This document shows, in pieces, positions 24,418-56,571 of a DNA stretch of 64,000 nucleotides. The notes beneath the pieces were generated by a model, which worked only from the letters and a program-made list of their open reading frames with translations, was not told where the DNA came from and made no database searches. Every line of letters starts with the position of its first letter. Position 1 is the stretch's first letter. This DNA comes from a virus (lineage: Duplodnaviria; Heunggongvirae; Uroviricota; Caudoviricetes). The position numbers and the translations under genes were made by a program. The stretch lies in the IMG/VR virus record IMGVR_UViG_3300028559_000005; one strand, given 5' to 3'.

Positions 24418-24427
24418 CCAAAATTAT

Positions 24428-24976: not shown

Positions 24977-24977
24977 A

Positions 24978-25229: not shown

Positions 25230-25235
25230 AGTGCT

Positions 25236-25265: not shown

Positions 25266-25274
25266 TAGGAGTTG

Positions 25275-25858: not shown

Positions 25859-25892
25859 AGTGTGTCCTTGAAAAAAATGGTAGGATGTTTTG

Positions 25893-25965
25893 TTGGACCC
25901 TCCGGACTCGAACCGGAACCTTACAAATTATGAGTTTGCGGCACTAACCATTATGCTAGAGTCCA
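25893..25965 (-). tRNA. tRNA with anticodon CAT (third CAT species; possibly Ile2 or elongator Met), CCA not encoded
   Basis: Acceptor TGGACTC/GGGTCCA-A. Anticodon arm GCAAA-CTCATAA-TTTGT. T-arm TCCGG-TTCGAGT-CCGGA. Confidence 0.5.
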
Positions 25966-38173: not shown

Positions 38174-38178
38174 AATTA

Positions 38179-41846: not shown

Positions 41847-42707
41847 TTAAGTACCCCACTCGTTCTTGAACAATGGTACTTGCAATCGGTCACTGTAACG
41901 TAAACCTGCGTTCATGGCCATAATAGCCACAGCCTTGTTATTCAATGAGTAAACACTTTCTACACCGCCCACTGGCATCAAGTACACATGTCCTTTGAAT
42001 CCTGCAGAACGGAATGCAGCAATAGCACACTCAGCATCAGCAAAGTCTTGTTCGGTAGCAATAACAAATTTCAAATATGTTGTACCAACAGATTCATACT
42101 CACACACAATTTCTGGGCAGATAGCATCTTCCCACTTCTCACCACTACAAGGAAGTTTAGCACTAACTGAGAATGTGATCTCACGAGATGTAAATGGAGG
42201 ATTTGTACCCCACTGTTTTAGAAACTCTTTAAACTCCGGAGAGAGCTTTTGAGTACCATTTGTTTCAAAAGTAATTTCTTTCAGCTTCAACATCTTTTCG
42301 TGATTCAACAAGTCTGGATAAGCACGTTGCCAACCTAGCAATGGCTCACCACCGGTGATAACAAGATGCTCATCCTTCCATTCCCCGTGCGGAATGATTT
42401 CCACAATACGATCTACAATGGCTTCGCTGGTTAGCATGGGACTCAACTCTTTAAAGTCTGGATGCCAACTAGCATAACTGTCACATCCTGTGCTAACCAG
42501 CGGAAGTTCATTATACTCTTTAAATGGATGCATGGCATGCATGACTGCAATTTCTTCTGTTTCCTTGCTTAGTTTGCCTCGTGGCATACCAAATCCTGCA
42601 CATTTGAAGTTGCATCCAAACACACGCAAGAACACACTGGGCACCCCCATATAACGCCCCTCACCTTGGATACTATAAAACAGTTCAGCTACTTTAAGTT
42701 TACTCAT
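41847..42707 (-). CDS. queE: 7-carboxy-7-deazaguanine synthase (QueE-like radical SAM)
   Basis: ELFYSIQGEGRYMGVPSVFLRVFGCNFKCAGF matches the QueE N-terminus (IQGEG...G.P..F.R..GCN..C). Confidence 0.7.
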   Translation of the reverse strand: MSKLKVAELFYSIQGEGRYMGVPSVFLRVFGCNFKCAGFGMPRGKLSKETEEIAVMHAMHPFKEYNELPLVSTGCDSYASWHPDFKELSPMLTSEAIVDRIVEIIPHGEWKDEHLVITGGEPLLGWQRAYPDLLNHEKMLKLKEITFETNGTQKLSPEFKEFLKQWGTNPPFTSREITFSVSAKLPCSGEKWEDAICPEIVCEYESVGTTYLKFVIATEQDFADAECAIAAFRSAGFKGHVYLMPVGGVESVYSLNNKAVAIMAMNAGLRYSDRLQVPLFKNEWGT

Positions 42708-43489
42708 ATTTTTTGTGCTTTAATTAACAAATGCCAACCCAGGTATTCTTTAACTGTTGCTCGCATCTCTTCTGACATCGCAGCAAACCAGGGCTCTAAT
42801 TCATACTCGCCGTTGCGGTACTTAGGTACATTATACATGAAACAATGATCTTGCCTAATTCTCAGCACTCGAAATTTTTCCTCCAACAGGTCATAAATTT
42901 CTTCCTTGCTGTAGGCTTTGGCATACGGACAATCTGATTGTGCTTCGAATTGATCCAGGCCTTTTTGGATCATTGCATACTTCCAGGAGTTCTTTGCGTA
43001 TACCAACATACGAAATTCCCCATTGGGCACCAGAGCATTATGGATATTATTCAAACATGCAGTCATGTCTGGATAGTGATGCAATACTCCGCAACTGTAT
43101 ACTAGATCAAATTTGCCCAAACAGTCCACTGCTGCACTGTCTGCGCCATCCATCACATGAAATTTGCCATTGAGTCCAAATAGATCAAATCGTTGTCGAC
43201 TCATGGCTACAGATTCTGCTGAAAGATCAATGCCCACATAGTCAGCACCATGACGTGCAAACTCCACAGCATCAGATCCAATACCGGATCCTATCTCTAA
43301 TACACGTTTGCCACGCCACAGATGAAAACTAGCAAAATCACGCAGGTGAGGTTCTACAAAGAATCTACGTTCGGTAACTTCGTTCCAATATTGTTCTGTG
43401 CCTGGCTCGCTAAGGCTGTGTTTGACATTACAAGGTTGTGTATTCCAGTAATGTTTAATTTTGTCTATAAGGTCAGTTGTCAAGGTCAA
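42704..43489 (-). CDS. class I SAM-dependent methyltransferase
   Basis: Motif I VLEIGSGIGSDAVEFARHGADYVGIDLS. Acidic motif II. Confidence 0.6.
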   Translation of the reverse strand: MTLTTDLIDKIKHYWNTQPCNVKHSLSEPGTEQYWNEVTERRFFVEPHLRDFASFHLWRGKRVLEIGSGIGSDAVEFARHGADYVGIDLSAESVAMSRQRFDLFGLNGKFHVMDGADSAAVDCLGKFDLVYSCGVLHHYPDMTACLNNIHNALVPNGEFRMLVYAKNSWKYAMIQKGLDQFEAQSDCPYAKAYSKEEIYDLLEEKFRVLRIRQDHCFMYNVPKYRNGEYELEPWFAAMSEEMRATVKEYLGWHLLIKAQKI

Positions 43490-44315
43490 TACTACTCCAT
43501 GATTTCATTAGACCTTTGGGATCTAATTTCAACATCTTATGCCAGATGTCAATTTTGTTTTCTATGCCCAATTTAAAATGTTCAAGATCGTACCCTAACG
43601 GTATTAGATAGTTGGCAATTTTCATAGCCTCTTGCATACGGCGGGTGCGCCATGACACATGATTAAAATCTCTAGGGTGATTAGGATTGCCCTCTAGCAT
43701 GGGGCGATTCCTAAACACATCATCGCCATTCTTACCTGTGAGGTCAAAACGTTCATGCTCAATCATTACAGGTATAGTAATTACAATATCCAACATCCAG
43801 CCAATCTGACTGGTCCACGCATCATTGATCTGATGAGGTGATATGTTACCTGTAATTTCTACCCACTTGCGTGGCAAGATTGGAAAGATGGCATATGGAT
43901 GTTCATGATTGGTTTCAGCTCGCAACAACGCAAAACGATCATTATACTCACGAATAACATCGTCCCACCCAGTAGTGGTCATTACAGCATCATCGTTCCA
44001 GAAAAACAGCCATGAACCGGTGCTGTGATTGGCCAACTCATTGAGGTATTCATTGAGACGAAGGTAACCCAATCGTTTGAATTGCATAGCACTATAGGTT
44101 ACACCTTTGGAATCAAGATATGGTGCAATCACATCAATGAAATATTCTATAGTATCTGTATCATCATCATCAAATGCTATCAATACTTCGATACGTTCAG
44201 GACTAGTAGCAGTATCAATCAATGTGTGCAAACATTGATCCATTGGAATTGGCCTTGCACGTACCGGTAACAGTACACTGATATCAATATTGGGGTTTTG
44301 TACGGGTAAACTCAT
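43473..44315 (-). CDS. GT-A-like putative glycosyltransferase, paralog A
   Basis: ISVLLPVRARP, FDDDDTD and GSWLFFWNDDAVMTTTGWDD...HPYAIFPILPRKWVEITGNISPH. Paralogous to 46234..47061. Confidence 0.35.
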   Translation of the reverse strand: MSLPVQNPNIDISVLLPVRARPIPMDQCLHTLIDTATSPERIEVLIAFDDDDTDTIEYFIDVIAPYLDSKGVTYSAMQFKRLGYLRLNEYLNELANHSTGSWLFFWNDDAVMTTTGWDDVIREYNDRFALLRAETNHEHPYAIFPILPRKWVEITGNISPHQINDAWTSQIGWMLDIVITIPVMIEHERFDLTGKNGDDVFRNRPMLEGNPNHPRDFNHVSWRTRRMQEAMKIANYLIPLGYDLEHFKLGIENKIDIWHKMLKLDPKGLMKSWSSIDLDN

Positions 44316-46237
44316 TGTGTTATACGTGTGATATTAGTTTTTCCAAAGTTGCGTTTTCTACCAAAATACATATTTTCCAGGAAACGGTCTTCACTCATGT
44401 TAGGATCTTCAACAGTATCAAATTGATAAACTGTGGGGGTTTTCAATGCAGCATTGTCTTGGATGTAACCAAGAAAGTCATAATCAAATGATTGTGTGAC
44501 TGGCAAGTTTCCTAAGTCTCTGTAGTCAATTACATAATTTCTTTGGAACTGTAACAGTTGATTTTTCACTTGCAAATCAATATTATAATGACTCTGCAAG
44601 AATTTGTCAAGTGAATCAAACACATAGTTGATCATTTGGTCTTTGACCATGTACAGTGTGGTTCTGTGCATAAGGTTCCACCCAAACACTTCAATGTTGC
44701 CGATACGGGGATGATCAATGCGCCCTTTGGTCATCCAGTTTTCAAAGTAACTACGAGTTTCTAAAAACTGCAAGCGGAACCAAGAATCTTTCTGTACCCA
44801 TGCATATAAATCTTCGTAGAACTTGCTGTAGTCAATATCTTGTTGTTTAGCTAGATATCTAGCTATGTACGTGCTGAGTCCGTTGATATGGAATGTTTGA
44901 ATAAAACTACTCCATACCAGTGTATCCAACATAGTATCTCGCGGTATGGTCTTGGTACTTACAACTACATCAATGCTTTCGTTAAGATCTACATCGCCGT
45001 AACTACCACTCATGTAGTCGTATACTGGTACAGACTCCAGTTTATACAAACGTTTTTGCAAAAGATTCATTTCAGCATTTTCCAGCAGCTGACATTGTAG
45101 GATGTTAATGCCGCCATGATTGCCTGCTCGAAAGATTTTCCAAAAAGCTTCTTTCCAAGATTCTACTGTTTCTCCAGGCAACCCCAAGATCAATTCCGTA
45201 TATACTGGAATATTATTTTTGTCGCACAAGGCAAAGATCTCATCAATTTTGTGTTGATCAAGATTACGACGTTTTATATTCTCTAGCACATCGTTGTCCA
45301 TGCTTTGCACACTCACGGTAAGACCTTGACCAAAGTTGGGTGATTCGTCAATCAGTTTCTTAACAATATCTACAACTTCGTTCTTTTGATTCTTGGCCCA
45401 GGTCATGGAAAAACTTTCCAGTTTGCCCCAACGCTTTTGTACTTGGATCAGTTTGTCTACAATCATGTTGTCACGTTCCACAAACATACCAAAGTTAGCA
45501 TCGGTAATGGTAACAAATCCACAATGTTCTCCAATCCAGTCTAACTCGTCGTAAACACGTTGCAGTTCAAACTTCTTGACCTTGTTGTATGTTAGACTAC
45601 CCCAATCGCAAAATGTACATTGGTAAGGACAACCACGATTGGTTTCTAATGTGGCATTCCAAATCACTTTGGGATTTTCAGTCATAATACGATCAAAAAT
45701 GCCTGTGAGATACGGACTTGGCACCTCGTCTAGATCATTGATACGTTTGGGATCTCCGGTGTTGATCAATCCTGTAGAACTGTTGATTAATAGTCCTGGA
45801 ATATGAGTGTAGTCAGATCCATGATCTTCGAGAATATTTCTAAAAGTCATTTCTCCTTCCATCTTGATCACTAGATCCATGAATGGTTCTTTTTCAAACA
45901 ACTCGGGATCTTCAATAGCTGGTTCAGGTCCACCAAACACAATCAAGCAGTTGGGATTGAGTGTTTTTACAAGTCGAGCTAGTTTATAATTGTATCGATG
46001 ATTCCACACATAGGTTGAGAATGCTACCACATCACTGGTGCTTAGTTTCAACGCCAGTGCTTCAATGGGTGCTCTACGCCATACCAAGTGATCAATTTCC
46101 CATGCTGCGTTGACTTTTTCTGAAGCAAGTGCATAACTCAGTATAACTCCTGCAGAATAAGGTAGGTAGTACGCATTAAATTCTTTAGGACCTTGTTGGA
46201 AGTTGGGCTGAACAAAGCTGATTTTCTTTTTTGTCAT
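44312..46237 (-). CDS. B12-binding-domain radical SAM enzyme (641 aa)
   Basis: Radical SAM cluster TNRGCPYQCTFCDWGS. Long N-terminal region consistent with a cobalamin-binding domain. Flanked by GT-A-like paralogs. Confidence 0.55.
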   Translation of the reverse strand: MTKKKISFVQPNFQQGPKEFNAYYLPYSAGVILSYALASEKVNAAWEIDHLVWRRAPIEALALKLSTSDVVAFSTYVWNHRYNYKLARLVKTLNPNCLIVFGGPEPAIEDPELFEKEPFMDLVIKMEGEMTFRNILEDHGSDYTHIPGLLINSSTGLINTGDPKRINDLDEVPSPYLTGIFDRIMTENPKVIWNATLETNRGCPYQCTFCDWGSLTYNKVKKFELQRVYDELDWIGEHCGFVTITDANFGMFVERDNMIVDKLIQVQKRWGKLESFSMTWAKNQKNEVVDIVKKLIDESPNFGQGLTVSVQSMDNDVLENIKRRNLDQHKIDEIFALCDKNNIPVYTELILGLPGETVESWKEAFWKIFRAGNHGGINILQCQLLENAEMNLLQKRLYKLESVPVYDYMSGSYGDVDLNESIDVVVSTKTIPRDTMLDTLVWSSFIQTFHINGLSTYIARYLAKQQDIDYSKFYEDLYAWVQKDSWFRLQFLETRSYFENWMTKGRIDHPRIGNIEVFGWNLMHRTTLYMVKDQMINYVFDSLDKFLQSHYNIDLQVKNQLLQFQRNYVIDYRDLGNLPVTQSFDYDFLGYIQDNAALKTPTVYQFDTVEDPNMSEDRFLENMYFGRKRNFGKTNITRITQ

Positions 46238-47061
46238 TCAGTATTTACTTGTTTAACAGTGGCGTCAACTTGATTGTTGGTATCGTTGGCCCGCATCTTG
46301 ATCCAAGGATCTTGTCGCCCTTCCCACGCATCAACAAAAAATGTTAGATCAAGTCCTTGATCCTGCATCCACGTGGCTAACTTGGCAACATCATCAGTAC
46401 GTATTTTGACCATGTCGGGGTGATTTAGGTCTCCAGGTTGGCTGGGATCACCTTCCATAATACGACGTTGCTGATAAGTTGCGTCATTGTTTATACCAGT
46501 GATGTCATATCGATTGTGATCACAATGTACATCAATACGTTCAAAAATATCCAGGTAATACGCCAGCTGACTTACATATGCATCATTGCTGCTGTGTTGA
46601 CTGATATGCCCTAGTATTTCAAACCATTGCCGTGGCAAAATAGGAAAGATGCTGTACGGATGATCGTTGTGCGTATACACACTCAGCAGTCGGAACTCAC
46701 CTGTGCGCTCGCGTATACGTACATCCCATGCTGCGGTTTTCATCACAGCATCGTCGTTCCAGAAAAACAGCCAGGACCCTTGACTGTGTTCAGCTAGGCC
46801 ATTTACATAACGGTGCAAGTTATTGTAGCCTTGTGGATCAAACACCAAAATCTTGTGTTTGATATTGTTTTGTTCAATCCAGGGACAGACGTTGTGTAGT
46901 ATGTTTTCCATACCCACCACGTCATCATTATCTACGCCAAACAATATTTCAATTGAGTCAAAATCCTCAGCCAGTGTATAGAGACTTTGTATGCTACTCA
47001 TTAACGCTTGTGCCCGACCACGAGTGGGCAGCAAGATACTGATATCAATTTTGTTGTTCAT
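46234..47061 (-). CDS. GT-A-like putative glycosyltransferase, paralog B
   Basis: ISILLPTRGRAQ, GVDNDD and GSWLFFWNDDAVMKTAAWD...HPYSIFPILPRQWFEILGHISQH. Confidence 0.35.
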   Translation of the reverse strand: MNNKIDISILLPTRGRAQALMSSIQSLYTLAEDFDSIEILFGVDNDDVVGMENILHNVCPWIEQNNIKHKILVFDPQGYNNLHRYVNGLAEHSQGSWLFFWNDDAVMKTAAWDVRIRERTGEFRLLSVYTHNDHPYSIFPILPRQWFEILGHISQHSSNDAYVSQLAYYLDIFERIDVHCDHNRYDITGINNDATYQQRRIMEGDPSQPGDLNHPDMVKIRTDDVAKLATWMQDQGLDLTFFVDAWEGRQDPWIKMRANDTNNQVDATVKQVNTE

Positions 47062-47221
47062 TTTAATTTACCAGTGATGTATAACACCTGCCACAATAAA
47101 GCAGTTGGTCACAATATAACATAATATAATGCAAGTTCTAATGCAGGCAACACAATTTGCTTCTGCATCTGTGTTGCCTGATTTCTCGCCCAGGGCCTTG
47201 GCCCAAAGACGCCACATTTTA

Positions 47222-47698
47222 TTAAAACTCGTTGTCTTCACGATGACCTTGACGGCCAGCCATGTTTGAATCAGTCTCACGCACTTCTACCTTGCAACAC
47301 CAAACTCGTGCAGCTTCTTCACTACCGCAGTTGGGCAAGAAGATTGTGTTAACGTATTCGTACAAGAAGTCAGCAATACCTTCGCACCCGGTCTTTTCTA
47401 CTTCTGTGATCTTGGCCAGTTTGAGTCTGCCCAATTCCAGCAAGTGTTCACGCATGGGATCATCTTGTGCAACCAGCAAAGTGTGATCAAACCAATCTTC
47501 TAGATTTGCCTTGAGTGGTTTTAGGCCGCCAAAGTCTGTACACCAGTTACGTGCATCCAGGGTATCACATTCAAATTCAAAGTGAAAGCTCATTGCGTAA
47601 CCGTGTATGAGATTGCAGTGACTCTGAGCACGCCACTGGCGATACGCTACAGGTCCAATTTGCTTGTAAGTTTTTGTTGAAAAGTATTTTTTTGCCAT
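47222..47698 (-). CDS. queD: 6-carboxy-5,6,7,8-tetrahydropterin synthase (QueD-like)
   Basis: CNLIHGY (CxxxHGH-type) catalytic motif. Size of about 158 aa is typical of QueD/PTPS. Confidence 0.65.
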   Translation of the reverse strand: MAKKYFSTKTYKQIGPVAYRQWRAQSHCNLIHGYAMSFHFEFECDTLDARNWCTDFGGLKPLKANLEDWFDHTLLVAQDDPMREHLLELGRLKLAKITEVEKTGCEGIADFLYEYVNTIFLPNCGSEEAARVWCCKVEVRETDSNMAGRQGHREDNEF

Positions 47699-47776
47699 GA
47701 TTTTCTCCTATGTTGATTATAGCATAGGCAGCAGAGTTTGTAAAGCGGGAATGACGCCCAAGACCGCTATGAATAT

Positions 47777-48181
47777 TTATACTGGTAGTTGGTAGCCTGT
47801 GGCCTTATAGTCGGCTTGCCCAAATATAACTCCACGTACTCCGCCAATAGGATTAGCAGTGTCGTTCACTCGACGTGGAATCAAATGCACATGTGGATAC
47901 ATTACCGTTTGTCCAGCAGCGGGTCCCATATTGATACCAATGTTGAATCCGTCACATTTGCCATCGGCTACCATGTGACGGCCATATCGCATAGCTGATT
48001 CCATACAGTCAATGATCACCGCATCAGTGTTGTAGTTAGGCACAAACAGCAAATGACCACGGGTCACTGGATAACGATCTTCAAACACAGTGACGTGAAA
48101 ATCACTTAACTCTTGTACTTTTAGATCCCACGGTGCTACACCGGCAGCATGGGCTTGATCTAATGTTTCGTAATTGATCAT
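47777..48181 (-). CDS. HIT-family hydrolase
   Basis: Histidine triad YPHVHLIP (HxHxHxx) near the C-terminus. Confidence 0.55.
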   Translation of the reverse strand: MINYETLDQAHAAGVAPWDLKVQELSDFHVTVFEDRYPVTRGHLLFVPNYNTDAVIIDCMESAMRYGRHMVADGKCDGFNIGINMGPAAGQTVMYPHVHLIPRRVNDTANPIGGVRGVIFGQADYKATGYQLPV

Positions 48182-48205
48182 CTTGGTGCAAATTCCTGTT
48201 GTAGT

Positions 48206-48952
48206 TTGATACCACTATTTTTACAGCAACCAGTTTTAAGTTTTATCATAAATAAATTATACAGCAATTTTATAGGAAAGTCAATGTTTTTAGATAACAG
48301 ATACACCAAAGTTTATTACCAAATTATTAATAGAGCATTAACAAGGCCATACAAAAAAGTAAAAAATGATGGGTATCAAAAACATCATATTGTTCCAAAA
48401 TGTATTGGCGGCACCAATTCCACTGATAATCTTGTAATACTTAGTTATAAAGAACATAGAGTGTGCCATTGTTTATTAATCAAAATCCAACTTACAACAT
48501 CAGCAGAAATCAAAATGCGACACGCCTATGGATTTTTTAATAAGAGTAGCAGATATAATGGCCCGCGATATAAAAGAGGAAAAGACAATGTATTCTCTAC
48601 TCCAGAAATTATCGAACAAGTCCGCTGGCGTATGATTAATAATAATCCTATGAAGGACCCACTTTCTCAACAAAAAAGAGTCGATACCTGGCGAGCAAAT
48701 AGAGCCGCGCAAAATTGCATTCCTCGGAGAATACTTAAGGATAAGTTTATCACACCATTGGGTATATTCAAAACTAAAAAAGAAATACAGAAAGTTCTAA
48801 ACATACCCGAATGGACATTAAATACTATCTACAACGATTTAGATGCCCTTCCTACTCCTGACGGAAGGGGTAGTAAAAAGATCACTCATCTAAATATTGA
48901 CATAAGCAAGACCTGGAGAGACAATGGATTTGACTTACTTGCCGTTTCTTGA
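48206..48952 (+). CDS. HNH homing endonuclease
   Basis: QKHHIVPKCIGGTNSTDNLVILSYKEHRVCH HNH core. Plus-strand, AT-rich insertion between HIT and FolE. Confidence 0.7.
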   Translation: MIPLFLQQPVLSFIINKLYSNFIGKSMFLDNRYTKVYYQIINRALTRPYKKVKNDGYQKHHIVPKCIGGTNSTDNLVILSYKEHRVCHCLLIKIQLTTSAEIKMRHAYGFFNKSSRYNGPRYKRGKDNVFSTPEIIEQVRWRMINNNPMKDPLSQQKRVDTWRANRAAQNCIPRRILKDKFITPLGIFKTKKEIQKVLNIPEWTLNTIYNDLDALPTPDGRGSKKITHLNIDISKTWRDNGFDLLAVS

Positions 48953-49723: not shown

Positions 49724-49724
49724 G

Positions 49725-50321
49725 TTATTCCTTAATGGTTATGTTTCGCAAATCTGGATACTGTACAAACTTGGGTTCTTGAGGTGCAGACTTGTACTGC
49801 TCCAACAACTCTAACCCACGTTCAGCATCTTCTATTGCAGGCCTGTAGTGATATCCCAACTGGAATGTTTTCTGTGTGTTCCAGGGTGAGATATTTAGGT
49901 CGCGACCATCATATCGTTGTTTTATCATCACTTCATAGGCTTGCTTGTTATCTAACAGTATAGCACCACCATGCCCTATTTGTAAAGGCTTGTCATGCCC
50001 AAAACTCAAACACTGCATCTGCCCTGTACGATACATGCCGGGTTCTAATCTTCTAGCACTGTCCCAAACTCTGGTATACACAAAATTGTATTCCCCAGAC
50101 CATGTTTGTTCACGCTCATCCAAGTACACATAGTCGATGCCCAACTTGTGCATGGTCATAGGAACACTCAAGTAAGTGTAAGGAGTCATCTTGAGACCCT
50201 TTACTCGCTCATACCTCAAGCACATCTCTATAGCATGTGTACAGCAATCGGTCATGATTGCAGCAGGAGCACCAGTGAACTCGGCCAGTGCCTGTTCAAA
50301 CTCAAGAATTTTTTTGAACAT
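49725..50321 (-). CDS. DegT/DnrJ/EryC1-like PLP-dependent aminotransferase (short form)
   Basis: SFGHDKPLQIGHGGAIL resembles the DegT PLP-lysine motif (SFHxxKxxxxGEGG). At 198 aa it may be truncated. Confidence 0.4.
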   Translation of the reverse strand: MFKKILEFEQALAEFTGAPAAIMTDCCTHAIEMCLRYERVKGLKMTPYTYLSVPMTMHKLGIDYVYLDEREQTWSGEYNFVYTRVWDSARRLEPGMYRTGQMQCLSFGHDKPLQIGHGGAILLDNKQAYEVMIKQRYDGRDLNISPWNTQKTFQLGYHYRPAIEDAERGLELLEQYKSAPQEPKFVQYPDLRNITIKE

Positions 50322-51255
50322 ACCAAGCCCATGCGTGTTGAATCATATCATCTAGTGTGTATTGACGCCAGTTCGGCATCAATTTATTAAACTTTGTTGC
50401 ACTGGCAGTGAGCACAGCAGGATCACCGGTCCGTCGGGGCTCTAGCAATACAGATACAGAACCTGCAATTGCAGCAGCATGGGTTAAGATCTCTTTCACA
50501 CTGGTACCAGTATTTGATCCTAGATTGTAAACACCTGATAGCACAGCAGTATCCAACGCACACACATGAGCATGAGCAATGTCTTCCACATGCACATAGT
50601 CACGTACACAAGTTCCGTCGGGTGTTTCGTAATCATCACCATACAAGGAAAACTGTTTGTTATCACGAGTGGCTTCTAAGATTCTAGCAATCACATGAGA
50701 GGCCCCGGGTGCCTGTCCATGTCGCCCCTGACGATCTGCACCACATGCATTGAAGTAACGGAACGCTACATAGTCAAGATTGTATGCTCGATGATAGCTG
50801 GCTAACACTTGTTCAATCATGCGTTTGCTTTCGCCATATGGGCTTATTGGCTCACATGGATCAACTTCTGAACATGAATCTAGTATCGGCTCGCCATACA
50901 CAGATGCACTTGAACTAAAAATAACTCTAGTTTTAGGCAGGGCATGAACCACAAGATCCAGCATATATATGGTCTTGATCACATTGTTGTGGTAGTAGTC
51001 TGAAGGATATTTAACGCTGGGTCCTACCAAACTGGTACCAGCACAATGAATGATGGCGCCGGGTTGTACCTGTATCAATTTTATTTTGGCTTGATCGCTA
51101 TCAAAGTCCGCCTGTACAAACTGATCGAACACATCTTTTAAACGTGCAGCACACGGTCTACGGTCAATGCCAATCACTCTGTGTCCAGCATCACACAAAG
51201 CCAATGCCACTTGTCCACCAATATATCCTGAAGCTCCAGTTACTACCACATCCAT
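50302..51255 (-). CDS. NAD-dependent sugar epimerase/dehydratase (GalE-like SDR)
   Basis: VVVTGASGYIGG Rossmann motif. YGESKRMIEQVL (YxxxK). The start is trimmed to the internal MDVVV. Confidence 0.6.
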   Translation of the reverse strand: MDVVVTGASGYIGGQVALALCDAGHRVIGIDRRPCAARLKDVFDQFVQADFDSDQAKIKLIQVQPGAIIHCAGTSLVGPSVKYPSDYYHNNVIKTIYMLDLVVHALPKTRVIFSSSASVYGEPILDSCSEVDPCEPISPYGESKRMIEQVLASYHRAYNLDYVAFRYFNACGADRQGRHGQAPGASHVIARILEATRDNKQFSLYGDDYETPDGTCVRDYVHVEDIAHAHVCALDTAVLSGVYNLGSNTGTSVKEILTHAAAIAGSVSVLLEPRRTGDPAVLTASATKFNKLMPNWRQYTLDDMIQHAWAWYVQKNS

Positions 51256-51256
51256 T

Positions 51257-52471
51257 TTAGAATTTTCCTTCTCGGGTATGTTTCCTATAATCCACACCCA
51301 TACGCAACATATCCTCGCCATTGCCTTGCATGATATCTAACACACGATCAATTGTGCCGTCGTTGCGATTGCTAATTTGTCCCATGCGTGGATGTTGCCA
51401 AGTTAGTAGTATTTCTAACTTGTTTAGGGCATCTTCTATTGACCAAGGAACATAAAGTCTGGAATGGTCATTAGAAAAAGTTTCAGGGAAAGACCTATAA
51501 GCAGGGTATAGAACATTACACCCAAGAGCATCTGCTTCACTGACTGTGTTGGAAACCCAATCTTGAAGGGCGCAATTAAACACAACACGACTATCATTAA
51601 CGATATTATAGTAATCATTCTTTTCCAAATCTTCGTAGATCACCAGTTTGCCTGCTGCTTGTAGATCACGGGTACGTTGCATGTAGCTTTCGCTATTTGA
51701 TTTCAACTTGCCGCCACTGCAAACTGCAAACTCCACAGCTATTTTAGGATGATGTTTGTACCATGATTCAATCAGATCCATGTAGAAATCAGGTTGCTTT
51801 TCTTGATCCCACCGTGCTGAGAATACCACACGCGATTTACGCTCTCTCCAGGGTTTAATACCAGGAACACGTGATTGTACTTCTGCTTTGCCAAATGCCA
51901 GGCCAGAGATATTGTAGATTGGAGCTTTCCAACCTGCAATCTTCATATGCATTACCATTTCCTCATTGGTGGCCAATACACCATCCACAAATGAATCCAC
52001 CATGCGTTCATAGTGACCCATAAAATCGCCCATGCCCCATACATGTACAAAATCATCAGGATCAATTGACTGAGCAAGACAGCGAACAAAGATCTTTGGG
52101 CGCAATGACTCCGGAATTTGTTTAAGGATGTAAGGTAAAGATTCAATGCCTGGTTGAAACATGTCTTCGAAGTAGATAATGTCTTCGTTGGAACATTCTC
52201 CTGCTTTCATCATCCGTATTAGATTCATCAGCTGGCTCATACCAAAGTATGTGCGGCCATGTGCATCTAGAACTTGTCCAGTTACAATAGCTTGATCATT
52301 GCTGAGTGTTTCGCCGGGTACTACTACATAGTCAATACCACGGCGATCAAACACCGCAGTGTTCCAATCTTGCAATTGTAGCGTGTAACGTGCTTTATAG
52401 GGCTCTAGGCCCATGTAAAACAACTTTCTCATGCACGGTATCCAGCCAGTCGACGAGTGTCTTCGTCCCAC
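51257..52471 (-). CDS. putative glycosyltransferase (GT-B / group 1-like)
   Basis: C-terminal ...VIYEDLEKNDYYNIVNDSRVVFNCALQDWVSNTVSEADALGCNVLYP is GT4-like. Tentative. Confidence 0.35.
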   Translation of the reverse strand: MGRRHSSTGWIPCMRKLFYMGLEPYKARYTLQLQDWNTAVFDRRGIDYVVVPGETLSNDQAIVTGQVLDAHGRTYFGMSQLMNLIRMMKAGECSNEDIIYFEDMFQPGIESLPYILKQIPESLRPKIFVRCLAQSIDPDDFVHVWGMGDFMGHYERMVDSFVDGVLATNEEMVMHMKIAGWKAPIYNISGLAFGKAEVQSRVPGIKPWRERKSRVVFSARWDQEKQPDFYMDLIESWYKHHPKIAVEFAVCSGGKLKSNSESYMQRTRDLQAAGKLVIYEDLEKNDYYNIVNDSRVVFNCALQDWVSNTVSEADALGCNVLYPAYRSFPETFSNDHSRLYVPWSIEDALNKLEILLTWQHPRMGQISNRNDGTIDRVLDIMQGNGEDMLRMGVDYRKHTREGKF

Positions 52472-52938
52472 ATGTTCTTGGCCGGCTTGCCCTGGCTGTG
52501 TTTGTTGAATTGTTGGAATGCATAACTGCGGAAGTTATACAGATCCGACTCGTTGAATTTGTATCCGTAATCGACACAGAACTCACGATATTGGTCCAGA
52601 TCCTCCCAAGTTTGTTCAGTGCGGGGGTTGTGTTTGATGATGACTTTGGCCATGGTGTTTCCTTATTTGTTATCTTCAATATAAACTAACGTGTTGTTGG
52701 GCATACCAAGAAAGGTGCCACAACTAACAACTTCTCCTTGCTCATCAATCTGAACGTCTCGACGCCCAATATTGATACTCAATACTTTGGTGCCGTCATC
52801 GTCTATGATTTCGGCCAATACTCCATCTTTTGCCAAATAAGGTTCACCAAAATTTTCATTGATGACCCCACATAATTTTTCTAAAGAGAGACTCATTTTG
52901 TTTCCTATGCTAAATAAATGATGATAGAGAGATAAGTT

Positions 52939-53523
52939 ATGCCTAAGTTAACCAACCCTACCACTAATGATACTTGTTTTTTGTGCGGATGTCAAGCACA
53001 TTGGATAAGTTTCAATTCTAAACAGATGCGATGTGTTGAGAAGATTACTCGATGTATTGGCTTTGTCAAAAAAGCTGAGGCAGCCCGGCAACAAAATATG
53101 TCTAAAGAGTTGCGCAGGAATCATATGAAGCAAATGAGCATTAGTGGTAATAAGCGACTTGCTGAACTTCACACTGATGAGCAATGGCGCCGCAGCAAGG
53201 GCAATAATATTTCTAAGGCTAAATCCACTATTTCTGTTGAACAACAGTCTGATTGGGGTATTTACGAAAGCATAGTTGATCGTATTACACGAGAAAGTTG
53301 GTTGTATCATAATGATAAAATCAATCCTGAAAACTTACCAAGAGGCCATGAGTATGAGTTGGATCACAAGTATAGTAAACATCAAGGTTTTTTAAATAAT
53401 GTTCCGCCAGAAGTAATAGGGCATTACTTAAACTTGCAAATGCTTCCGCGGCACTCTAATCGTAAAAAATACAACAAGTGTTCTATATCCATTGATGAAC
53501 TGTACGAGAGCATCAATATTTAA
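52939..53523 (+). CDS. HNH-like endonuclease (194 aa)
   Basis: N-terminal Cys cluster CFLCGC...RC...RC. HEYELDHKYSKHQGF HNH-like core. Plus-strand insertion. Confidence 0.45.
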   Translation: MPKLTNPTTNDTCFLCGCQAHWISFNSKQMRCVEKITRCIGFVKKAEAARQQNMSKELRRNHMKQMSISGNKRLAELHTDEQWRRSKGNNISKAKSTISVEQQSDWGIYESIVDRITRESWLYHNDKINPENLPRGHEYELDHKYSKHQGFLNNVPPEVIGHYLNLQMLPRHSNRKKYNKCSISIDELYESINI

Positions 53524-53965
53524 TTGACTGTGCCGAGTAAGTTAGTTTAAATTTTATTAAACAACCATTCTCGCCATCTTCACTAACTTCAATCCATATT
53601 TCTTTGTCTGGATATTTTGCAGCGATTTGATCGTAAAGATCCTCGGCCATCATTTCACAACTTTTGTAGTCAAGTTGCAAGGTTCCGTCTTGATATAGAT
53701 TCTCAAGCCAGCGTTTGAATTGAATGAACTCTATGGCCCTATCTGAATGTTCGACATCAATCCACACCCTGAAATGAAAGATGTGACGGTGAGCAGTAGC
53801 AAGAAACGATACATCATATTCATCTCCAGTGGCCAATGCAGGATCTGTGGCAGCAGCTGGATATTTATGGATGCCTTCTTTGCGGAATGTGACCCAGATC
53901 TTGCGATCTGCACGAGAGCGAACTCGCTCTCGTTGTTCTAGCAATGCTTGTTCGCGTTCGTTCAT
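53513..53965 (-). CDS. hypothetical protein
   Basis: ORF. Probable start at the internal MNEREQALL. Confidence 0.35.
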   Translation of the reverse strand: MNEREQALLEQRERVRSRADRKIWVTFRKEGIHKYPAAATDPALATGDEYDVSFLATAHRHIFHFRVWIDVEHSDRAIEFIQFKRWLENLYQDGTLQLDYKSCEMMAEDLYDQIAAKYPDKEIWIEVSEDGENGCLIKFKLTYSAQSIKY

Positions 53966-53969
53966 AACA

Positions 53970-54527
53970 TTATTCCAAAGTAAAAAGTTTGTGGAAAGTA
54001 GATTGAGACATAGCCTCAAGTTTCTTCATAGCACCATCTGTAAATCTAAACTGATATGATCTAGGACCGTTGGCCTGTCTCTCAAAAAACCCATAGTAGC
54101 CTCCTAGGATATAATCACTTTGATCACCTTGGATGATTTTCTGTCTAGCTGCTTCGTAACACTTTTCAATTTTTTCTTGTATGTGTAGTATTGAAAAATT
54201 ATACACTTCTGCTGAGACTATGACTTGATCTTTGGTCTTGACTCGATATTGTCGCTGTAATTTGCCATAGATCACAGATTCTCTGTACGGAGTCAATTTA
54301 ATATCCTCGGGAGTCATCCTACCAACTGTGTGTGCTGAAACAGCATCAAGATCTCTTGATTTGACTTCTGTTTCGATCTCCGGTATATCTGGCCCGGGCG
54401 CATTAGACATAGGATAGCCTTGCTCGCCAAGTTCCTTTTCAATATATCGACCAGCGGCGCCACCAAAATTTGATGGGACCAATTTACCAACCATGTTTGC
54501 TTTGAGTCTAACAACTTTAGCTTTCAT
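53970..54527 (-). CDS. hypothetical protein (185 aa)
   Basis: ORF only. Confidence 0.35.
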   Translation of the reverse strand: MKAKVVRLKANMVGKLVPSNFGGAAGRYIEKELGEQGYPMSNAPGPDIPEIETEVKSRDLDAVSAHTVGRMTPEDIKLTPYRESVIYGKLQRQYRVKTKDQVIVSAEVYNFSILHIQEKIEKCYEAARQKIIQGDQSDYILGGYYGFFERQANGPRSYQFRFTDGAMKKLEAMSQSTFHKLFTLE

Positions 54528-55030
54528 AATGTTTCGTCCTTGGTATATTTAGACCAGTCAGTAAAGTGGTCTCGATTTTGTAGTTCATGTATGCTATGAC
54601 ACCAAACACCAGGATTGGTAGCAGCAAAGTCCTTGTCGTCTATTTTGAGTGTGGCATTATAGCCTAACAGTTTGATATATGGTAGTTTGACTGAGATCAT
54701 TGGAATAAAATTATGATCTTCAGTTAGGCTAGATTCCAATAATCCTTCCACACACTTGACATCAATATCAAGTGTACACAGGTACCCTTTTTGCAAAAAG
54801 TATAGAATCATATTTTCCCACTGCGACCACTTTACGTAGTCGTTGGTATCAATATTTGGAAAACTTTGATTGGCACCAAAATAGATATGCTCACATCCTT
54901 GTATATTGGCGGCAATATCATCTGCTGATTGTACCCCAACTACAAATAATGTCTTTTTACCAAATGCAGGTGTGTGTTCTACTTCAGTTCCATAAAAGAA
55001 CTTGATGTTCTCGTGGCCTTCTCGATTCAT
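54524..55030 (-). CDS. hypothetical protein (168 aa)
   Basis: ORF only. Adjacent to the transglycosylase-like gene. Confidence 0.35.
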   Translation of the reverse strand: MNREGHENIKFFYGTEVEHTPAFGKKTLFVVGVQSADDIAANIQGCEHIYFGANQSFPNIDTNDYVKWSQWENMILYFLQKGYLCTLDIDVKCVEGLLESSLTEDHNFIPMISVKLPYIKLLGYNATLKIDDKDFAATNPGVWCHSIHELQNRDHFTDWSKYTKDETL

Positions 55031-56571
55031 ACTTGATCCTGTTCGAGTTGTTGTAATGCTTCAAAGTTTAACAGATCTTCGGGCTCAGAGTCAACCTCTA
55101 CCACATCAAATAATGCCGAAAACTGTGTATTGGCATTCTTGGTCTTTTTGCCCTTGAATCCTCGAGTACCAATAATATCCATCCAGTATCGGTCATACTT
55201 TTCAATAATAGCTTCAGACTCTGCACGATTGGATGTTGCAAATATAGCCTCTACAATATCTGCAAAGTGAGTGTGATCACCATTCTCATGCCACATCATG
55301 TAAGGCCACGACCCTGAATCAAATGTTCTATTGGCACGTTGCACCGCTTCCAAATGCATCCAAACATTGTGCCCCATCAGCAATGCATATGAGAATGAAT
55401 CCCAAGATGTCTTGCCTTCTTTGCCAATCTTGTTCAAGTCGCCAGGCTTGTAGATGCACACATCCTTCATAGTCAGCAATCGACTGAGCGGGCTTTCATC
55501 AAAGTGATCCACCAATCCGTCGGCTACCACAGCCGACCCATAAGGTCTAGTGTCTGTGCTGTATTTCTTGTCATCGGCAATGGGACTCATTCTATAGCAC
55601 CATTTTTCGTTGTGTGCCAAATCTATATGATGATATACTTGCCCATTAGCAGTGGCCAGGAATGGACTTGCACAATCAAACGAAATAGTAAAATCAGGGT
55701 TAACATACTTTCTAACAGCACGTTGAATCACAGTAAGCAATACTGCCCATTCTAGTTTTGATGTACCCAAAAAGTGCATCCAATCATGCTTGCCCTGTTG
55801 TAGCAAGTTATCATGTCGCAATGCCACTAGGCGTTTAAGCACCAAATGTACGTCGCACATGTTCTGACCACCCATACTCCATCCATCAAAATGTGTGGTA
55901 GGGTACTTGACAGGGTCACAAAAGTCTTTCATTTCCTGATACCATTGTTCAGCACTGGTGTGATTGTCACCTTGCAACACGTTTAAGAACTTGGCACCAC
56001 CATTTTCTTTGCCCTTGCGATGAGCCATGAAATATTCATTGTTGAACTTAGTAGCATCTACTGCCTCTTGTAGTGTGGTAATCTGACAGGCTTTGCTTGC
56101 TTTCTTGTCGTGGATCACCCAAGTAGGAATATCCAAGATCATGCCGTAGTCACTCACACTGTCCAACCATGCAAGCACTGCTGAACGTTTTTTCTGTGCT
56201 TTGGCACAACCTGAGTTGGCCTTCCAATCGCCTTCCCACAGTCCTTTGGCAATTTGGAATCCGCCTGAGTCACCAAGTATAAAGCTACCTGGTTCTCTAT
56301 TGCGAACCATATCCTCAGACCAGTCTTGTTTGTTGAGATCCAAGTTGGCATGTCCACCTGAATACAAACTCCACCGATACGGAAACAATGCTTTTTGACT
56401 GTTAAGCCAATTCATCATCTCCATATCAGTAAGTCCGGCAGGCATACGTCCAGGATCTACATATGGTTCGTTACGTTGTTTGCCCACGAACGTAGCATAA
56501 AATCCCGAGATGGCTGGAAGGAACACAGCATAGTCGTTCTGCTTGGCTGTGAGATTGTCTTGATTGATCAC
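55027..56571 (-). CDS. dpdA: tRNA-guanine-transglycosylase-superfamily protein (DpdA-like DNA 7-deazaguanine transglycosylase)
   Basis: ILGDSGGFQIAKG carries the TGT-family DSGGFQ catalytic motif. 514 aa. It co-occurs with FolE, QueD and QueE in this window. Confidence 0.6.
   Translation of the reverse strand: MINQDNLTAKQNDYAVFLPAISGFYATFVGKQRNEPYVDPGRMPAGLTDMEMMNWLNSQKALFPYRWSLYSGGHANLDLNKQDWSEDMVRNREPGSFILGDSGGFQIAKGLWEGDWKANSGCAKAQKKRSAVLAWLDSVSDYGMILDIPTWVIHDKKASKACQITTLQEAVDATKFNNEYFMAHRKGKENGGAKFLNVLQGDNHTSAEQWYQEMKDFCDPVKYPTTHFDGWSMGGQNMCDVHLVLKRLVALRHDNLLQQGKHDWMHFLGTSKLEWAVLLTVIQRAVRKYVNPDFTISFDCASPFLATANGQVYHHIDLAHNEKWCYRMSPIADDKKYSTDTRPYGSAVVADGLVDHFDESPLSRLLTMKDVCIYKPGDLNKIGKEGKTSWDSFSYALLMGHNVWMHLEAVQRANRTFDSGSWPYMMWHENGDHTHFADIVEAIFATSNRAESEAIIEKYDRYWMDIIGTRGFKGKKTKNANTQFSALFDVVEVDSEPEDLLNFEALQQLEQDQV

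What the first reader, a model, noticed from the sequence alone, without database searches (positions are those of the whole stretch)
41847..56571. 7-deazaguanine (preQ0-type) DNA-modification gene set with unusual accessory enzymes and no visible QueC
FolE (48935-49723), QueD (47222-47698), QueE (41847-42707) and a DSGGFQ-motif TGT-superfamily protein (DpdA-like, 55027-56571) are all present.
Together they form the phage pathway that replaces guanine in DNA with 7-deazaguanine derivatives, a known anti-restriction modification.
This cluster additionally interleaves several other enzymes:
- a SAM methyltransferase (42704-43489)
- a B12-binding radical SAM enzyme (44312-46237)
- two paralogous GT-A-like proteins flanking the radical SAM enzyme
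- a HIT hydrolase
- a short DegT-like aminotransferase, a GalE-like epimerase and a GT-B candidate
No QueC (preQ0 synthase) or Gat-QueC is recognisable in the window.
The combination suggests either a further, possibly novel, elaboration of the 7-deazaguanine base (methylated, glycosylated or amino-sugar decorated), or reliance on host preQ0.
Basis: partly seen in the sequence, partly recalled or inferred. Interest (0 to 1): 0.75.

Follow-up and report, generated by a model that had tools for sequence, protein, structure and literature searches.

The report
Phage 7-deazaguanine DNA-modification cluster with glycosyltransferases
This uncultured jumbo phage carries genes to replace guanine in its DNA with 7-deazaguanine by a known QueC-independent route, plus a dedicated sugar-transferase gene that hints at an undescribed sugar-decorated form of that base.

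Summary
FolE, QueD, QueE, the SAM methyltransferase, the B12 radical-SAM enzyme, two paralogous GT-A proteins, HIT, the short DegT-like protein, GalE and the GT-B all sit at the stated coordinates.

It carries the LxxxHRHxF signature and is 53% identical to the Acidovorax phage ACP17 protein. DpdL explains the missing QueC. This is the QueC-independent 7-deazaguanine (dDG) route described for Cellulophaga phage phiST, not a preQ0 route, so host preQ0 is not needed.

What goes beyond published work:
- The transglycosylase belongs to a large unannotated family (968 clusters at 50% identity), most like DpdA2.
- A GT4-like GT-B lies inside this cluster in 35 of 35 related loci. It sits next to, or one gene from, DpdL in ACP17, PA5oct, Xanthomonas phage X1 and cyanophage BUCT-ZZ01. 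This suggests a glycosylated deazaguanine, which remains untested.

The GT-A/B12-rSAM/methyltransferase block is restricted to close relatives and moves around genomes. Its link to the DNA base is weak.

The parts
55027..56571 (-). Divergent DpdA-type guanine transglycosylase (514 aa). Invariant D101-S-G-G-x-Q106, D147, H266 and D299.
54524..55030 (-). Conserved 168-aa partner of unknown function (ACP17 gp122-like).
53970..54527 (-). 185-aa ORF found only in the closest relatives; function unknown.
53513..53965 (-). DpdL, the proposed 7-carboxy-7-deazaguanine decarboxylase (a QueD paralogue).
   Evidence: Motif LATAHRHIF matches LxxxHRHxF. 53% identical to ACP17 gp125, 55% to PA5oct gp166 and 34% to phiST gp040. 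The motif and role are from PMC10516641.
52939..53523 (+). HNH-like ORF (probable homing endonuclease) inserted in the cluster.
   Evidence: No Pfam hit; read as HNH-like by eye from the translation. Absent from most relatives.
52429..52653 (-). Conserved 74-aa gene between DpdL and the GT-B.
   Evidence: Present in 30 of 35 related loci.
51257..52432 (-). GT4-like GT-B glycosyltransferase dedicated to this cluster.
   Evidence: A profile hits WlaC 6eji at 3.4e-6. 64-67% identical in distant relatives and in cyanophage BUCT-ZZ01. 35 of 35 loci chosen by this gene carry the DpdA-like gene and DpdL.
50302..51255 (-). UDP-glucose 4-epimerase GalE.
   Evidence: NCBIfam TIGR01179, 287.7 bits against a cut-off of 262.3. 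Present in 20 of 35 related loci.
49725..50321 (-). Short (198 aa) DegT-like protein that retains an SFxxxK lysine motif.
   Evidence: Pfam DegT 2.2e-13. Same size and 50-92% identity in relatives.
48935..49723 (-). GTP cyclohydrolase I (FolE).
48206..48952 (+). Weak HNH-like ORF (probable homing endonuclease).
   Evidence: Pfam HNH and HNH_5 hits at E about 0.007-0.008, below the curated cut-offs.
47777..48181 (-). HIT-family nucleotide hydrolase/transferase.
   Evidence: Pfam HIT 9.5e-10. In relatives it lies next to an XGPRT-like phosphoribosyltransferase.
47222..47698 (-). QueD (6-carboxytetrahydropterin synthase), phage CxxxHGY variant.
46234..47061 (-). GT-A (GT2-like) glycosyltransferase, paralogue b.
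   Evidence: phrog_14945 at 2e-12. 42% identical to paralogue a.
44312..46237 (-). Cobalamin-dependent (class B) radical SAM enzyme, a probable C-methyltransferase.
   Evidence: Pfam B12-binding and Radical_SAM domains. NCBIfam KedN5 subfamily at 4.8e-73, but below the family cut-off.
43473..44315 (-). GT-A (GT2-like) glycosyltransferase, paralogue a.
42704..43489 (-). Class I SAM-dependent methyltransferase.
   Evidence: 43.5% identical to a gene of Synechococcus phage Bellamy.
41847..42707 (-). QueE (7-carboxy-7-deazaguanine synthase).
   Evidence: phrog_2076 at 2.7e-49. Invariant C32, C36 and C75.
56568..57290 (-). Conserved 240-aa protein always upstream of the DpdA-like gene (PA5oct gp170-like).
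   Evidence: 35 of 35 loci.

Best explanation
This is a phage system that replaces guanine in its own DNA with a 7-deazaguanine base, using the QueC-independent DpdL route.

Proposed pathway:
1. FolE, QueD and QueE convert GTP to 7-carboxy-7-deazaguanine (CDG). This follows from established family functions.
2. DpdL removes the carboxyl group to give 7-deazaguanine. This is inferred from homology to the phiST and ACP17 DpdL proteins. The activity itself is only predicted in the literature.
3. The 514-aa DpdA-type transglycosylase, encoded beside the DNA polymerase, exchanges guanine in phage DNA for that base. This is inferred from fold, conserved catalytic aspartates and gene context.
4. The cluster-dedicated GT4-like GT-B, supplied by the adjacent GalE with a UDP-hexose, probably adds a sugar to the deazaguanine in DNA. 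This rests on gene association only, and the attachment atom is unknown.

The GT-A pair, B12 radical-SAM enzyme, SAM methyltransferase and DegT-like protein form an insert found only in close relatives. They most likely build or tailor a sugar. Whether that sugar ends up on DNA is open.

The expected benefit is evasion of restriction and other DNA-targeting defences.
For: Pathway genes:
- DpdL: motif plus 34-55% identity to DpdL of phiST, ACP17 and PA5oct.
- phiST has the same FolE/QueD/QueE/DpdL set without QueC, and its DNA is fully dDG (PMC10516641).

Transglycosylase:
- Viral structural neighbours are phage TGT/DpdA proteins.
- hhalign to DpdA2-type proteins gives probability 97.3 and aligns DSGGFQ, LDIPT, HFLG and SFDxxSP.
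- ACP17 gp123 is listed as DpdA2 in Hutinet 2019 Supplementary Data 1.

Synteny and experiment:
- The order PolB / 240-aa protein / DpdA-like / 168-aa protein / DpdL / GT-B / GalE / FolE / HIT / QueD / QueE recurs in relatives and, in part, in PA5oct, ACP17, X1 and BUCT-ZZ01.
- PA5oct DNA resists restriction enzymes whose sites contain G. PA5oct is also restricted by END nucleases that in that study targeted only hypermodified phages, and by END^Mag, which there hit only G-modified phages (PMC12191111).

GT-B linkage:
- 35 of 35 full-flank loci chosen by the GT-B carry the DpdA-like gene and DpdL, and 34 carry QueE.
- The GT-B is 67% identical in a T4-like cyanophage that uses a different DpdA type.
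Against: - No biochemical or mass-spectrometry data exist for this phage or for any phage carrying the GT-B.
- phiST makes plain dDG without a GT-B.
- The 514-aa protein fails every sequence model of TGT/DpdA and lacks the CxCxxC...H zinc motif.
- 7-deazaguanine has no obvious hydroxyl acceptor for a sugar.
- The B12-rSAM gene (85% identical) lies far from the deazaguanine cluster in another phage.
- The methyltransferase and GT-A homologues in cultured phages were not found in any recognised deazaguanine context. The methyltransferase of phage Bellamy sits next to a NadE-like gene; the wider contexts were not examined.
- The window has many other glycan genes, so the sugar genes could serve another target.
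Confidence: 0.7

Rival explanations
1. Plain dDG only. The core (FolE, QueD, QueE, DpdL, DpdA-like) makes unadorned 2'-deoxy-7-deazaguanosine as in phiST. All sugar enzymes (GT-B, GalE, GT-A pair, DegT-like, B12-rSAM, methyltransferase) serve another target, such as virion or host-surface glycans.
For: - phiST, and vibriophage VP1 as reported, have 100% dDG (PMC10516641; bioRxiv 10.1101/2025.10.29.685425).
- The window holds further glycosyltransferases, ADP-heptose-type genes and radical SAM genes elsewhere.
- The B12-rSAM homologue sits in a separate rSAM/UDP-Glc dehydrogenase cluster in L036.
Against: - The GT-B family was never seen outside the deazaguanine cluster (35 of 35 loci).
- It keeps its place within one gene of DpdL in five unrelated phage lineages.
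- It is more conserved than the DpdA-like protein: 64-67% against 44-46% identity.
Confidence: 0.3
2. Pre-replicative route. The free 7-deazaguanine base is converted to a nucleotide (phosphoribosyltransferase, kinases, RNR) and incorporated by the phage PolB. The TGT-like protein would have a secondary or different role.
For: - XGPRT-like phosphoribosyltransferase genes lie in the cluster of many relatives, often next to HIT.
- A MazG-like pyrophosphatase lies near the cluster.
- Complete G replacement in dDG phages is easier to reach before replication (inference).
Against: - No phosphoribosyltransferase is present in this 64-kb window.
- The catalytic residues of the transglycosylase are invariant across 62-72 diverse homologues.
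- The PRTase can equally be explained as salvage of the guanine released by base exchange.
Confidence: 0.1
3. tRNA modification. The TGT-like enzyme inserts a deazaguanine into phage-encoded tRNAs rather than into DNA.
For: - The window encodes 29 tRNAs, including the four GUN-anticodon tRNAs (Asn, His, Asp, Tyr) that are queuosine substrates.
Against: - PA5oct, which has the homologous genes, has restriction-resistant DNA.
- The gene sits between the DNA polymerase and other replication genes in all relatives.
- Chromosomal homologues lie in islands, one of them beside type I R-M-like ORFs as read by eye from the translations.
- DpdL phages with measured DNA carry dDG.
Confidence: 0.06
4. Host-preQ0 dependence. 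The phage lacks QueC and imports or uses host preQ0 for DNA insertion.
For: No QueC among the ORFs scanned across the window.
Against: - DpdL is present and conserved.
- The phage encodes the whole route to CDG, which would be pointless if host preQ0 were used.
- No YhhQ-type transporter was found.
Confidence: 0.03

Closest known systems
Cellulophaga phage phiST dDG system (FolE, QueD, QueE, DpdL, DpdA3; Cui et al. 2023, PMC10516641)
   Same: Same biosynthetic logic: FolE/QueD/QueE without QueC, plus DpdL with the LxxxHRHxF motif. The cluster lies next to the DNA polymerase. The QueD variant (CxxxHGY) is the same.
   Different: - phiST DpdA3 is 259 aa and only weakly related: hhalign probability 78.8, and tblastn with it does not reach this family.
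- phiST has no GT-B, GalE, HIT, GT-A, B12-rSAM or methyltransferase in its cluster.
Acidovorax phage ACP17 cluster (QueD, FolE, gp122, DpdA2 gp123, gp124, DpdL gp125, QueE)
   Same: Homologues of QueD (69%), the 168-aa protein (about 30-33%), the GT-B (23%, E 1e-15), DpdL (53%) and QueE. The order DpdA / GT-B / DpdL is the same.
   Different: - The ACP17 transglycosylase is a 424-aa DpdA2, about 20% identical over the catalytic core.
- It has no GalE, GT-A, B12-rSAM or methyltransferase block.
- Its DNA modification has not been determined. Co-expression of its DpdL and DpdA without gp124 gave no dDG (PMC10516641).
Pseudomonas jumbo phage PA5oct (Wroclawvirus) gp162-gp170
   Same: gp168 is 31.5% identical over 98% of the 514-aa protein. 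gp170, gp167 (GT-B), gp166 (DpdL) and gp162 (QueE) are syntenic homologues. gp168 follows the DNA polymerase genes after gp170 and gp169. Its DNA shows G-linked restriction resistance.
   Different: gp166-gp168 are annotated as hypothetical. No GalE-adjacent, GT-A, B12-rSAM or methyltransferase genes lie in that region. The chemical nature of the PA5oct modification is unpublished in the library searched.
T4-type DNA glucosylation (GT-B alpha- and beta-glucosyltransferases acting on 5-hydroxymethylcytosine)
   Same: A working analogy only: a phage-encoded GT-B using a UDP-hexose to decorate an already modified base in DNA.
   Different: No sequence relationship was tested. The acceptor there is a hydroxymethyl group on a pyrimidine. 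Here the presumed acceptor is a deazapurine with no hydroxyl.
Bacterial Dpd system (DpdA/DpdB/DpdC; structure 7ui4)
   Different: No PADLOC, Pfam or NCBIfam model hit. 14% identity. No DpdB or DpdC partners. The substrate there is preQ0.

Membership tests
TGT/DpdA superfamily | TGT-type (beta/alpha)8 barrel fold | tested here: met
TGT/DpdA superfamily | Catalytic aspartates: Asp of the DSGG(F/Y)Q motif and the nucleophile Asp of the (F/Y)D(C/S) motif | tested here: met
   D101-S-G-G-F-Q106 and D299 (SFDCASP) are invariant in 62 and 72 homologues. They align with DSGGLQ and SYDSTTH of DpdA2-type proteins. Equivalence to Zymomonas TGT Asp102/Asp280 rests on my own knowledge, not on a superposition.
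TGT/DpdA superfamily | Zinc site CxCxxC...H | tested here: not met
   No such motif in the sequence. Only C372, H401 and H406 are conserved in the C-terminal part.
TGT/DpdA superfamily | Recognition by curated sequence models (Pfam PF01702 TGT, NCBIfam, PADLOC DpdA) | tested here: not met
   No hits. A profile of the family finds no PDB sequence. ACP17 DpdA2 and phiST DpdA3 also give no Pfam hit, so this criterion is weak for phage DpdAs.
TGT/DpdA superfamily | Base exchange on DNA rather than tRNA | not testable with these tools
   Only context: the replication module, PA5oct DNA resistance, and chromosomal homologues in islands, one beside type I R-M-like ORFs read by eye.
DpdA2 subfamily (KVP40, nt-1, ACP17) | Sequence relatedness to DpdA2 proteins | tested here: inconclusive
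   hhalign probability 97.3, E 2.2e-11 over 189 columns at 19% identity. BLAST E 0.004 between PA5oct gp168 and ACP17 gp123. Homologous, but far outside the subfamily's usual identity range.
DpdA3 subfamily (phiST, Campylobacter phages) | Sequence relatedness to phiST CGPG_00065 | tested here: inconclusive
   hhalign probability 78.8, E 1.7e-5 over 82 columns. tblastn with phiST DpdA3 finds no member of this family. The 2023 supplementary list of DpdA3 members was not available.
DpdL (proposed CDG decarboxylase) | LxxxHRHxF motif replacing the QueD CxxxHGH, with loss of the catalytic Cys | tested here: met
   LATAHRHIF in the window protein. The HRH motif aligns in ACP17, phiST, BUCT-ZZ01 and L012; PA5oct has HFH. 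DpdL rows lack the HCxxxHG segment of QueD.
DpdL (proposed CDG decarboxylase) | Co-occurrence with FolE, QueD, QueE and a DpdA, without QueC | tested here: met
   no QueC among the scanned ORFs; relatives.
DpdL (proposed CDG decarboxylase) | Decarboxylation of CDG to 7-deazaguanine | not testable with these tools
   The activity is only predicted, even in the source paper.
   No Pfam QueC hit in the ORFs of about 98 aa or more scanned across the window. The only PP-loop-like ORF (1938-3080) shows no similarity to the QueC of Vibrio phage 2.275.O.
GT-B / GT4 glycosyltransferases | C-terminal nucleotide-sugar-binding domain of Glycos_transf_1 type | tested here: met
   The profile hits WlaC (6eji) at 3.4e-6 and WbaZ at 0.022. 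The X1 homologue passes the Pfam Glycos_transf_1 cut-off. The window protein alone is below cut-off.
UDP-glucose 4-epimerase GalE | Score above the NCBIfam equivalog cut-off | tested here: met
   TIGR01179, 287.7 bits against 262.3.
Class B (cobalamin-dependent) radical SAM methylases | N-terminal B12-binding domain plus radical SAM domain | tested here: met
   PF02310 at 37.9 bits (cut-off 32.1) and PF04055 at 42.5 bits (cut-off 29.5).
KedN5 family C-methyltransferases | Score above the NCBIfam subfamily cut-off | tested here: not met
   246 bits against a cut-off of 700. Only residues 14-368 match; the C-terminal 270 aa are unmatched.

The most novel reading that the evidence does not exclude
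In this phage, and in PA5oct, ACP17, X1, BUCT-ZZ01 and thousands of uncultured relatives, the guanine replacement may not be plain 7-deazaguanine. It may be a glycosylated 7-deazaguanine made on DNA by the cluster-dedicated GT-B with a GalE-supplied hexose. Attachment could be a C-glycoside at the electron-rich pyrrole carbon that DpdL frees by decarboxylation. In the lineage of this window the adduct may be extended further by the GT-A pair and tailored by the B12 radical-SAM C-methylase and the SAM methyltransferase. To my knowledge, and in the library searched here, no sugar-decorated purine has been described in a natural DNA genome, so this would be the first.
Probability: 0.3. Interest if true: 0.85.

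Novelty: new variant of a known kind. Interest (0 to 1): 0.62.

Why it matters
- Deazaguanine DNA modifications blunt restriction enzymes and Cas9, and are themselves targets of newly found defences (END nucleases, Dag glycosylases).
- The 514-aa family is large: more than 7,000 proteins at 90% clustering and 968 clusters at 50%. It gets no hit in Pfam, NCBIfam, PHROGs or PADLOC, and the homologues seen in GenBank phage records are annotated as hypothetical. Recognising it as a DpdA-type enzyme assigns a DNA modification to a large group of aquatic jumbo phages and to the therapeutic-candidate PA5oct group.
- The strict linkage of a glycosyltransferase with DpdL gives a concrete prediction that can be tested on cultured phages. 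It may also explain why DpdL plus DpdA of ACP17 alone gave no dDG in E. coli.
- If the sugar adduct is real, it extends DNA glycosylation from pyrimidines to a purine analogue.

Tried and rejected
Searches that gave nothing useful:
- Megablast of the 16.5-kb region against GenBank phages: no match.
- Sequence searches of the 514-aa protein, alone or as a 62-sequence profile, against PDB, Pfam, NCBIfam, PHROGs and PADLOC: nothing. Only structure prediction resolved it.
- Literature searches for a glycosylated deazaguanine or for DNA chemistry of PA5oct, BUCT-ZZ01 or ACP17: none found.
- The supplementary table of the 2023 DpdA3 paper was not available, so I could not check whether its authors already filed this family under DpdA3.

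Ideas tested and dropped:
- PP-loop ORF 1938-3080 as a hidden QueC: no Pfam, PHROG or PDB hit and no similarity to a phage QueC or to the X1 PAPS-reductase-like protein. Not supported, but not resolved either.
- The gene after the DpdA-like gene in Vibrio phage 2.275.O as a GT-B: rejected (hhalign probability 0.3). The GT-B therefore tracks DpdL, not the transglycosylase type.
- B12-rSAM as an obligatory member of the deazaguanine cluster: rejected. Homologues 81-85% identical lie in other contexts (L035-L037, L065, L067). In the 303-kb contig of L036/L097 the gene is about 80 kb from the cluster, among six other radical SAM genes and a UDP-glucose dehydrogenase.
- A phosphoribosyltransferase or a second GT-B in this window: none.

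Full report
**Observation.**
The region 41.8-57.3 kb is a run of minus-strand genes with short overlaps.
- FolE: Pfam 4.4e-39.
- PTPS/QueD: 2.6e-15.
- Class I SAM methyltransferase.
- A protein with B12-binding and radical SAM domains, both above Pfam cut-offs.
- HIT.
- A 198-aa DegT-like protein.
- An SDR epimerase and a weak GT-B.
- QueE is clear against PHROGs at 2.7e-49. Its three cluster cysteines are invariant among phage QueEs, including that of phiST.
- The epimerase passes the NCBIfam GalE equivalog cut-off.
- The two GT-A-like proteins are 42% identical paralogues.

No QueC family hit appears in the ORFs of about 98 aa or more that were scanned across the 64 kb.

**The 514-aa protein.**
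It matches nothing in Pfam, NCBIfam, PHROGs, PADLOC or PDB sequences, even as a 62-sequence profile.

It belongs to a very large family. More than 7,000 proteins were found in the 90%-clustered collection, and 968 clusters at 50% identity reached E of 0.001 or better. Some sit on contigs over 300 kb.

Foldseek against viral models finds the Vibrio phage 2.275.O homologue first. Next come phage proteins named tRNA-guanine transglycosylase and the nt-1 protein.

Invariant residues are D101-S-G-G-x-Q106, D147, H266 and D299. Profile-profile alignment puts them on DSGGLQ, FDEIP, HLLGVG and SYDSTTH of the ACP17-type proteins (probability 97.3, E 2.2e-11). ACP17 gp123 is listed as DpdA2 by Hutinet et al. 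2019. The link to phiST DpdA3 is weaker (probability 78.8), and tblastn with DpdA3 does not reach this family.

The canonical zinc motif is absent.

I therefore file the protein as a TGT/DpdA-superfamily enzyme, closest to DpdA2 but outside any defined subfamily.

**Why QueC is missing.**
The ORF at 53513-53965 matched only phrog_17812, a family of unknown function. It carries LATAHRHIF, which is the LxxxHRHxF signature Cui et al. 2023 give for DpdL. DpdL is their proposed CDG decarboxylase, a QueD paralogue that has lost the catalytic cysteine.

The ORF is 53% identical to ACP17 gp125, 55% to PA5oct gp166 and 34% to phiST gp040. phiST has FolE, QueD, QueE, DpdL and DpdA3 but no QueC, and its DNA contains dDG in place of all dG.

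So the pathway here stops at CDG and turns to 7-deazaguanine. The 'preQ0-type' label and the host-preQ0 alternative are not needed.

**Context and relatives.**
The exact 514-aa protein occurs on 17 metagenome contigs, six of them in the 0.2-1 Mb class, with the same gene order. Relatives whose transglycosylase is only 44-46% identical keep this order: PolB, 240-aa protein, DpdA-like, 168-aa protein, DpdL, GT-B, GalE, FolE, then HIT, QueD and QueE.

Cultured phages share parts of it:
- PA5oct: gp170, gp168, gp167 (GT-B), gp166 (DpdL) and gp162 (QueE), downstream of the polymerase genes.
- ACP17: gp122-gp126.
- Xanthomonas phage X1: GT-B, a gene annotated 'queuine tRNA-ribosyltransferase', DpdL, QueE.
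- The T4-like cyanophage BUCT-ZZ01: QueE, XGPRT, QueD, FolE, a second GT-B-like protein (GT4-type motifs, not confirmed by hhalign), DpdA2-type, DpdL, and a GT-B 67% identical to the window's.

[quoted passage not shown] PA5oct is restricted by END nucleases, which in that study targeted only hypermodified phages, and by END^Mag, which there hit only phages with modified G. That paper noted only QueE and a PTPS gene (PMC12191111). This is the best experimental support that the gene set modifies DNA.

**The glycosyltransferase link.**
A profile of the GT-B hits the GT4 enzyme WlaC (3.4e-6). The X1 homologue passes the Pfam Glycos_transf_1 cut-off.

I chose 35 full-flank IMG/VR loci by the GT-B gene alone. 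Their content was:
- the DpdA-like gene and the 240-aa gene: all 35;
- DpdL: all 35;
- QueE: 34;
- FolE: 30;
- QueD: 28;
- GalE: 20;
- a second GT-B: 17.

MAG-binned phage contigs show the same pattern. In Vibrio phage 2.275.O the homologous transglycosylase accompanies QueC, QueF and Gat but no DpdL, and the neighbouring gene is not a GT-B.

The GT-B therefore tracks DpdL across phage lineages and across two transglycosylase types. It is also more conserved than the transglycosylase. The simplest reading is that it acts on the product of the pathway, most likely the deazaguanine in DNA. This is association, not proof.
- phiST makes plain dDG without a GT-B.
- 7-deazaguanine offers no hydroxyl. 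A C- or N-glycoside would be required.

Cui et al. report that ACP17 DpdL plus DpdA gave no dDG in E. coli and that other enzymes may be needed. The omitted gp124 (GT-B) and gp122 (168-aa homologue) are obvious candidates.

**The remaining accessory genes.**
The block GT-A, B12-rSAM, GT-A, methyltransferase lies between QueD and QueE in about two dozen close relatives, with variants lacking one GT-A or the methyltransferase. It is rare in the wider set: one or two of 35 loci.

B12-rSAM genes 81-85% identical occur in other contexts. In the 303-kb contig that also holds a GT-B/deazaguanine cluster (L097), the B12-rSAM lies about 80 kb away (L036). There it sits among six other radical SAM genes and a UDP-glucose dehydrogenase.

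The methyltransferase and GT-A have their only cultured-phage homologues in Synechococcus phage Bellamy and Pelagibacter phage HTVC008M.

The B12-rSAM scores well below the KedN5 cut-off and has an unmatched 270-aa C-terminal region.

I read this block as a mobile sugar-building or sugar-tailoring module. Its target may or may not be the DNA adduct.

HIT sits beside an XGPRT-like phosphoribosyltransferase in several relatives. That points to nucleotide or guanine salvage rather than sugar chemistry. This window has no such transferase.

**Rivals.**
- A tRNA role is raised by the 29 tRNA genes, including all four GUN-anticodon species. The PA5oct DNA data, the replication-module position and the island context of chromosomal homologues argue against it.
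- A pre-replicative nucleotide route is suggested by the phosphoribosyltransferases and a MazG-like gene. It is not favoured, because the catalytic residues of the transglycosylase are invariant.
- The 'plain dDG, sugars unrelated' reading remains a serious alternative for the accessory genes.

**Verdict.**
This is a real, well-supported deazaguanine DNA-modification cluster of the known DpdL type. It carries a previously unannotated DpdA-like family and a dedicated glycosyltransferase. It is a new variant of a known kind, and it makes a concrete prediction that can be tested on cultured phages.

Noticed in passing
window 6928-25965: 29 tRNA genes, all on the minus strand, covering most amino acids and including Asn, His, Asp and Tyr GUN anticodons.
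   Followed up: partly
window 12428-14724: ADP-heptose-type nucleotide-sugar genes set among the tRNA genes: an HldD-like epimerase, a cupin, an HldE kinase domain and an HldE adenylyltransferase domain as separate ORFs.
   Followed up: partly
window 7064-7894 (+), 9446-10183 (-), 26051-27022 (-), 8403-9446 (-), 20559-21323 (-): Further glycosyltransferase-like genes (phrog_2835 glucosyltransferase, GT2-like, GT17-like) and two more radical SAM enzymes outside the cluster. The phage has a broad glycan and radical-SAM repertoire.
   Followed up: partly
window 1938-3080 (-): A 380-aa ORF with a canonical PP-loop motif (SFSGGSDS). It has no hit in Pfam, PHROGs or PDB and no similarity to a phage QueC. 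A 28%-identical homologue lies 8 kb from the B12-rSAM gene in L076.
   Followed up: partly
window 48206-48952 (+) and 52939-53523 (+): Two plus-strand HNH-like ORFs, likely homing endonucleases, interrupt the minus-strand cluster and are absent from most relatives. The first has only sub-threshold Pfam HNH hits; the second has none and was read by eye.
   Followed up: no
window 37634-39992: A MazG-like (PRA-PH) pyrophosphatase (38179-38733), a small methyltransferase-like ORF (37634-38173) and a FEN/5'-3' exonuclease (38982-39992) lie downstream of QueE. They are syntenic in relatives. phiST also has a MazG-like gene beside DpdL.
   Followed up: partly
L182-L207 (bacterial genome contigs): Homologues of the DpdA-like protein, 27-37% identical, lie in chromosomes of Limnohabitans, Polynucleobacter, Sphingobium, Novosphingobium and others. 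Judging by eye from the translated ORFs, the islands carry integrase-, type I R-M- or ParB-like genes. In 20 of the roughly 25 loci one of three unrelated 510-590-aa partner families is found, lying directly upstream in the three loci inspected. None of the phage Que-gene queries hits within 8 kb, and there is no PADLOC hit.
   Followed up: partly
L036 1392-19285: In a 303-kb phage contig the B12-rSAM homologue (85% identical) sits in a cluster with a second B12-binding rSAM, five more radical SAM or SPASM proteins and a UDP-glucose dehydrogenase.
   Followed up: partly
L011 17973-19821; L012 17501-18076; L084 9093-9554; L170, L173, L176, L180, L181, L203: Relatives often carry an XGPRT-like phosphoribosyltransferase inside the deazaguanine cluster, frequently next to HIT. 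It could salvage guanine released by base exchange, or it could make a deazaguanine nucleotide.
   Followed up: partly
L018 and L033, around 3129-3713: In some relatives the GT-B appears as a roughly 194-aa fragment with extra sequence between the 74-aa gene and the GT-B. This may be an intron or homing-endonuclease insertion, or an artefact of my ORF extraction.
   Followed up: no
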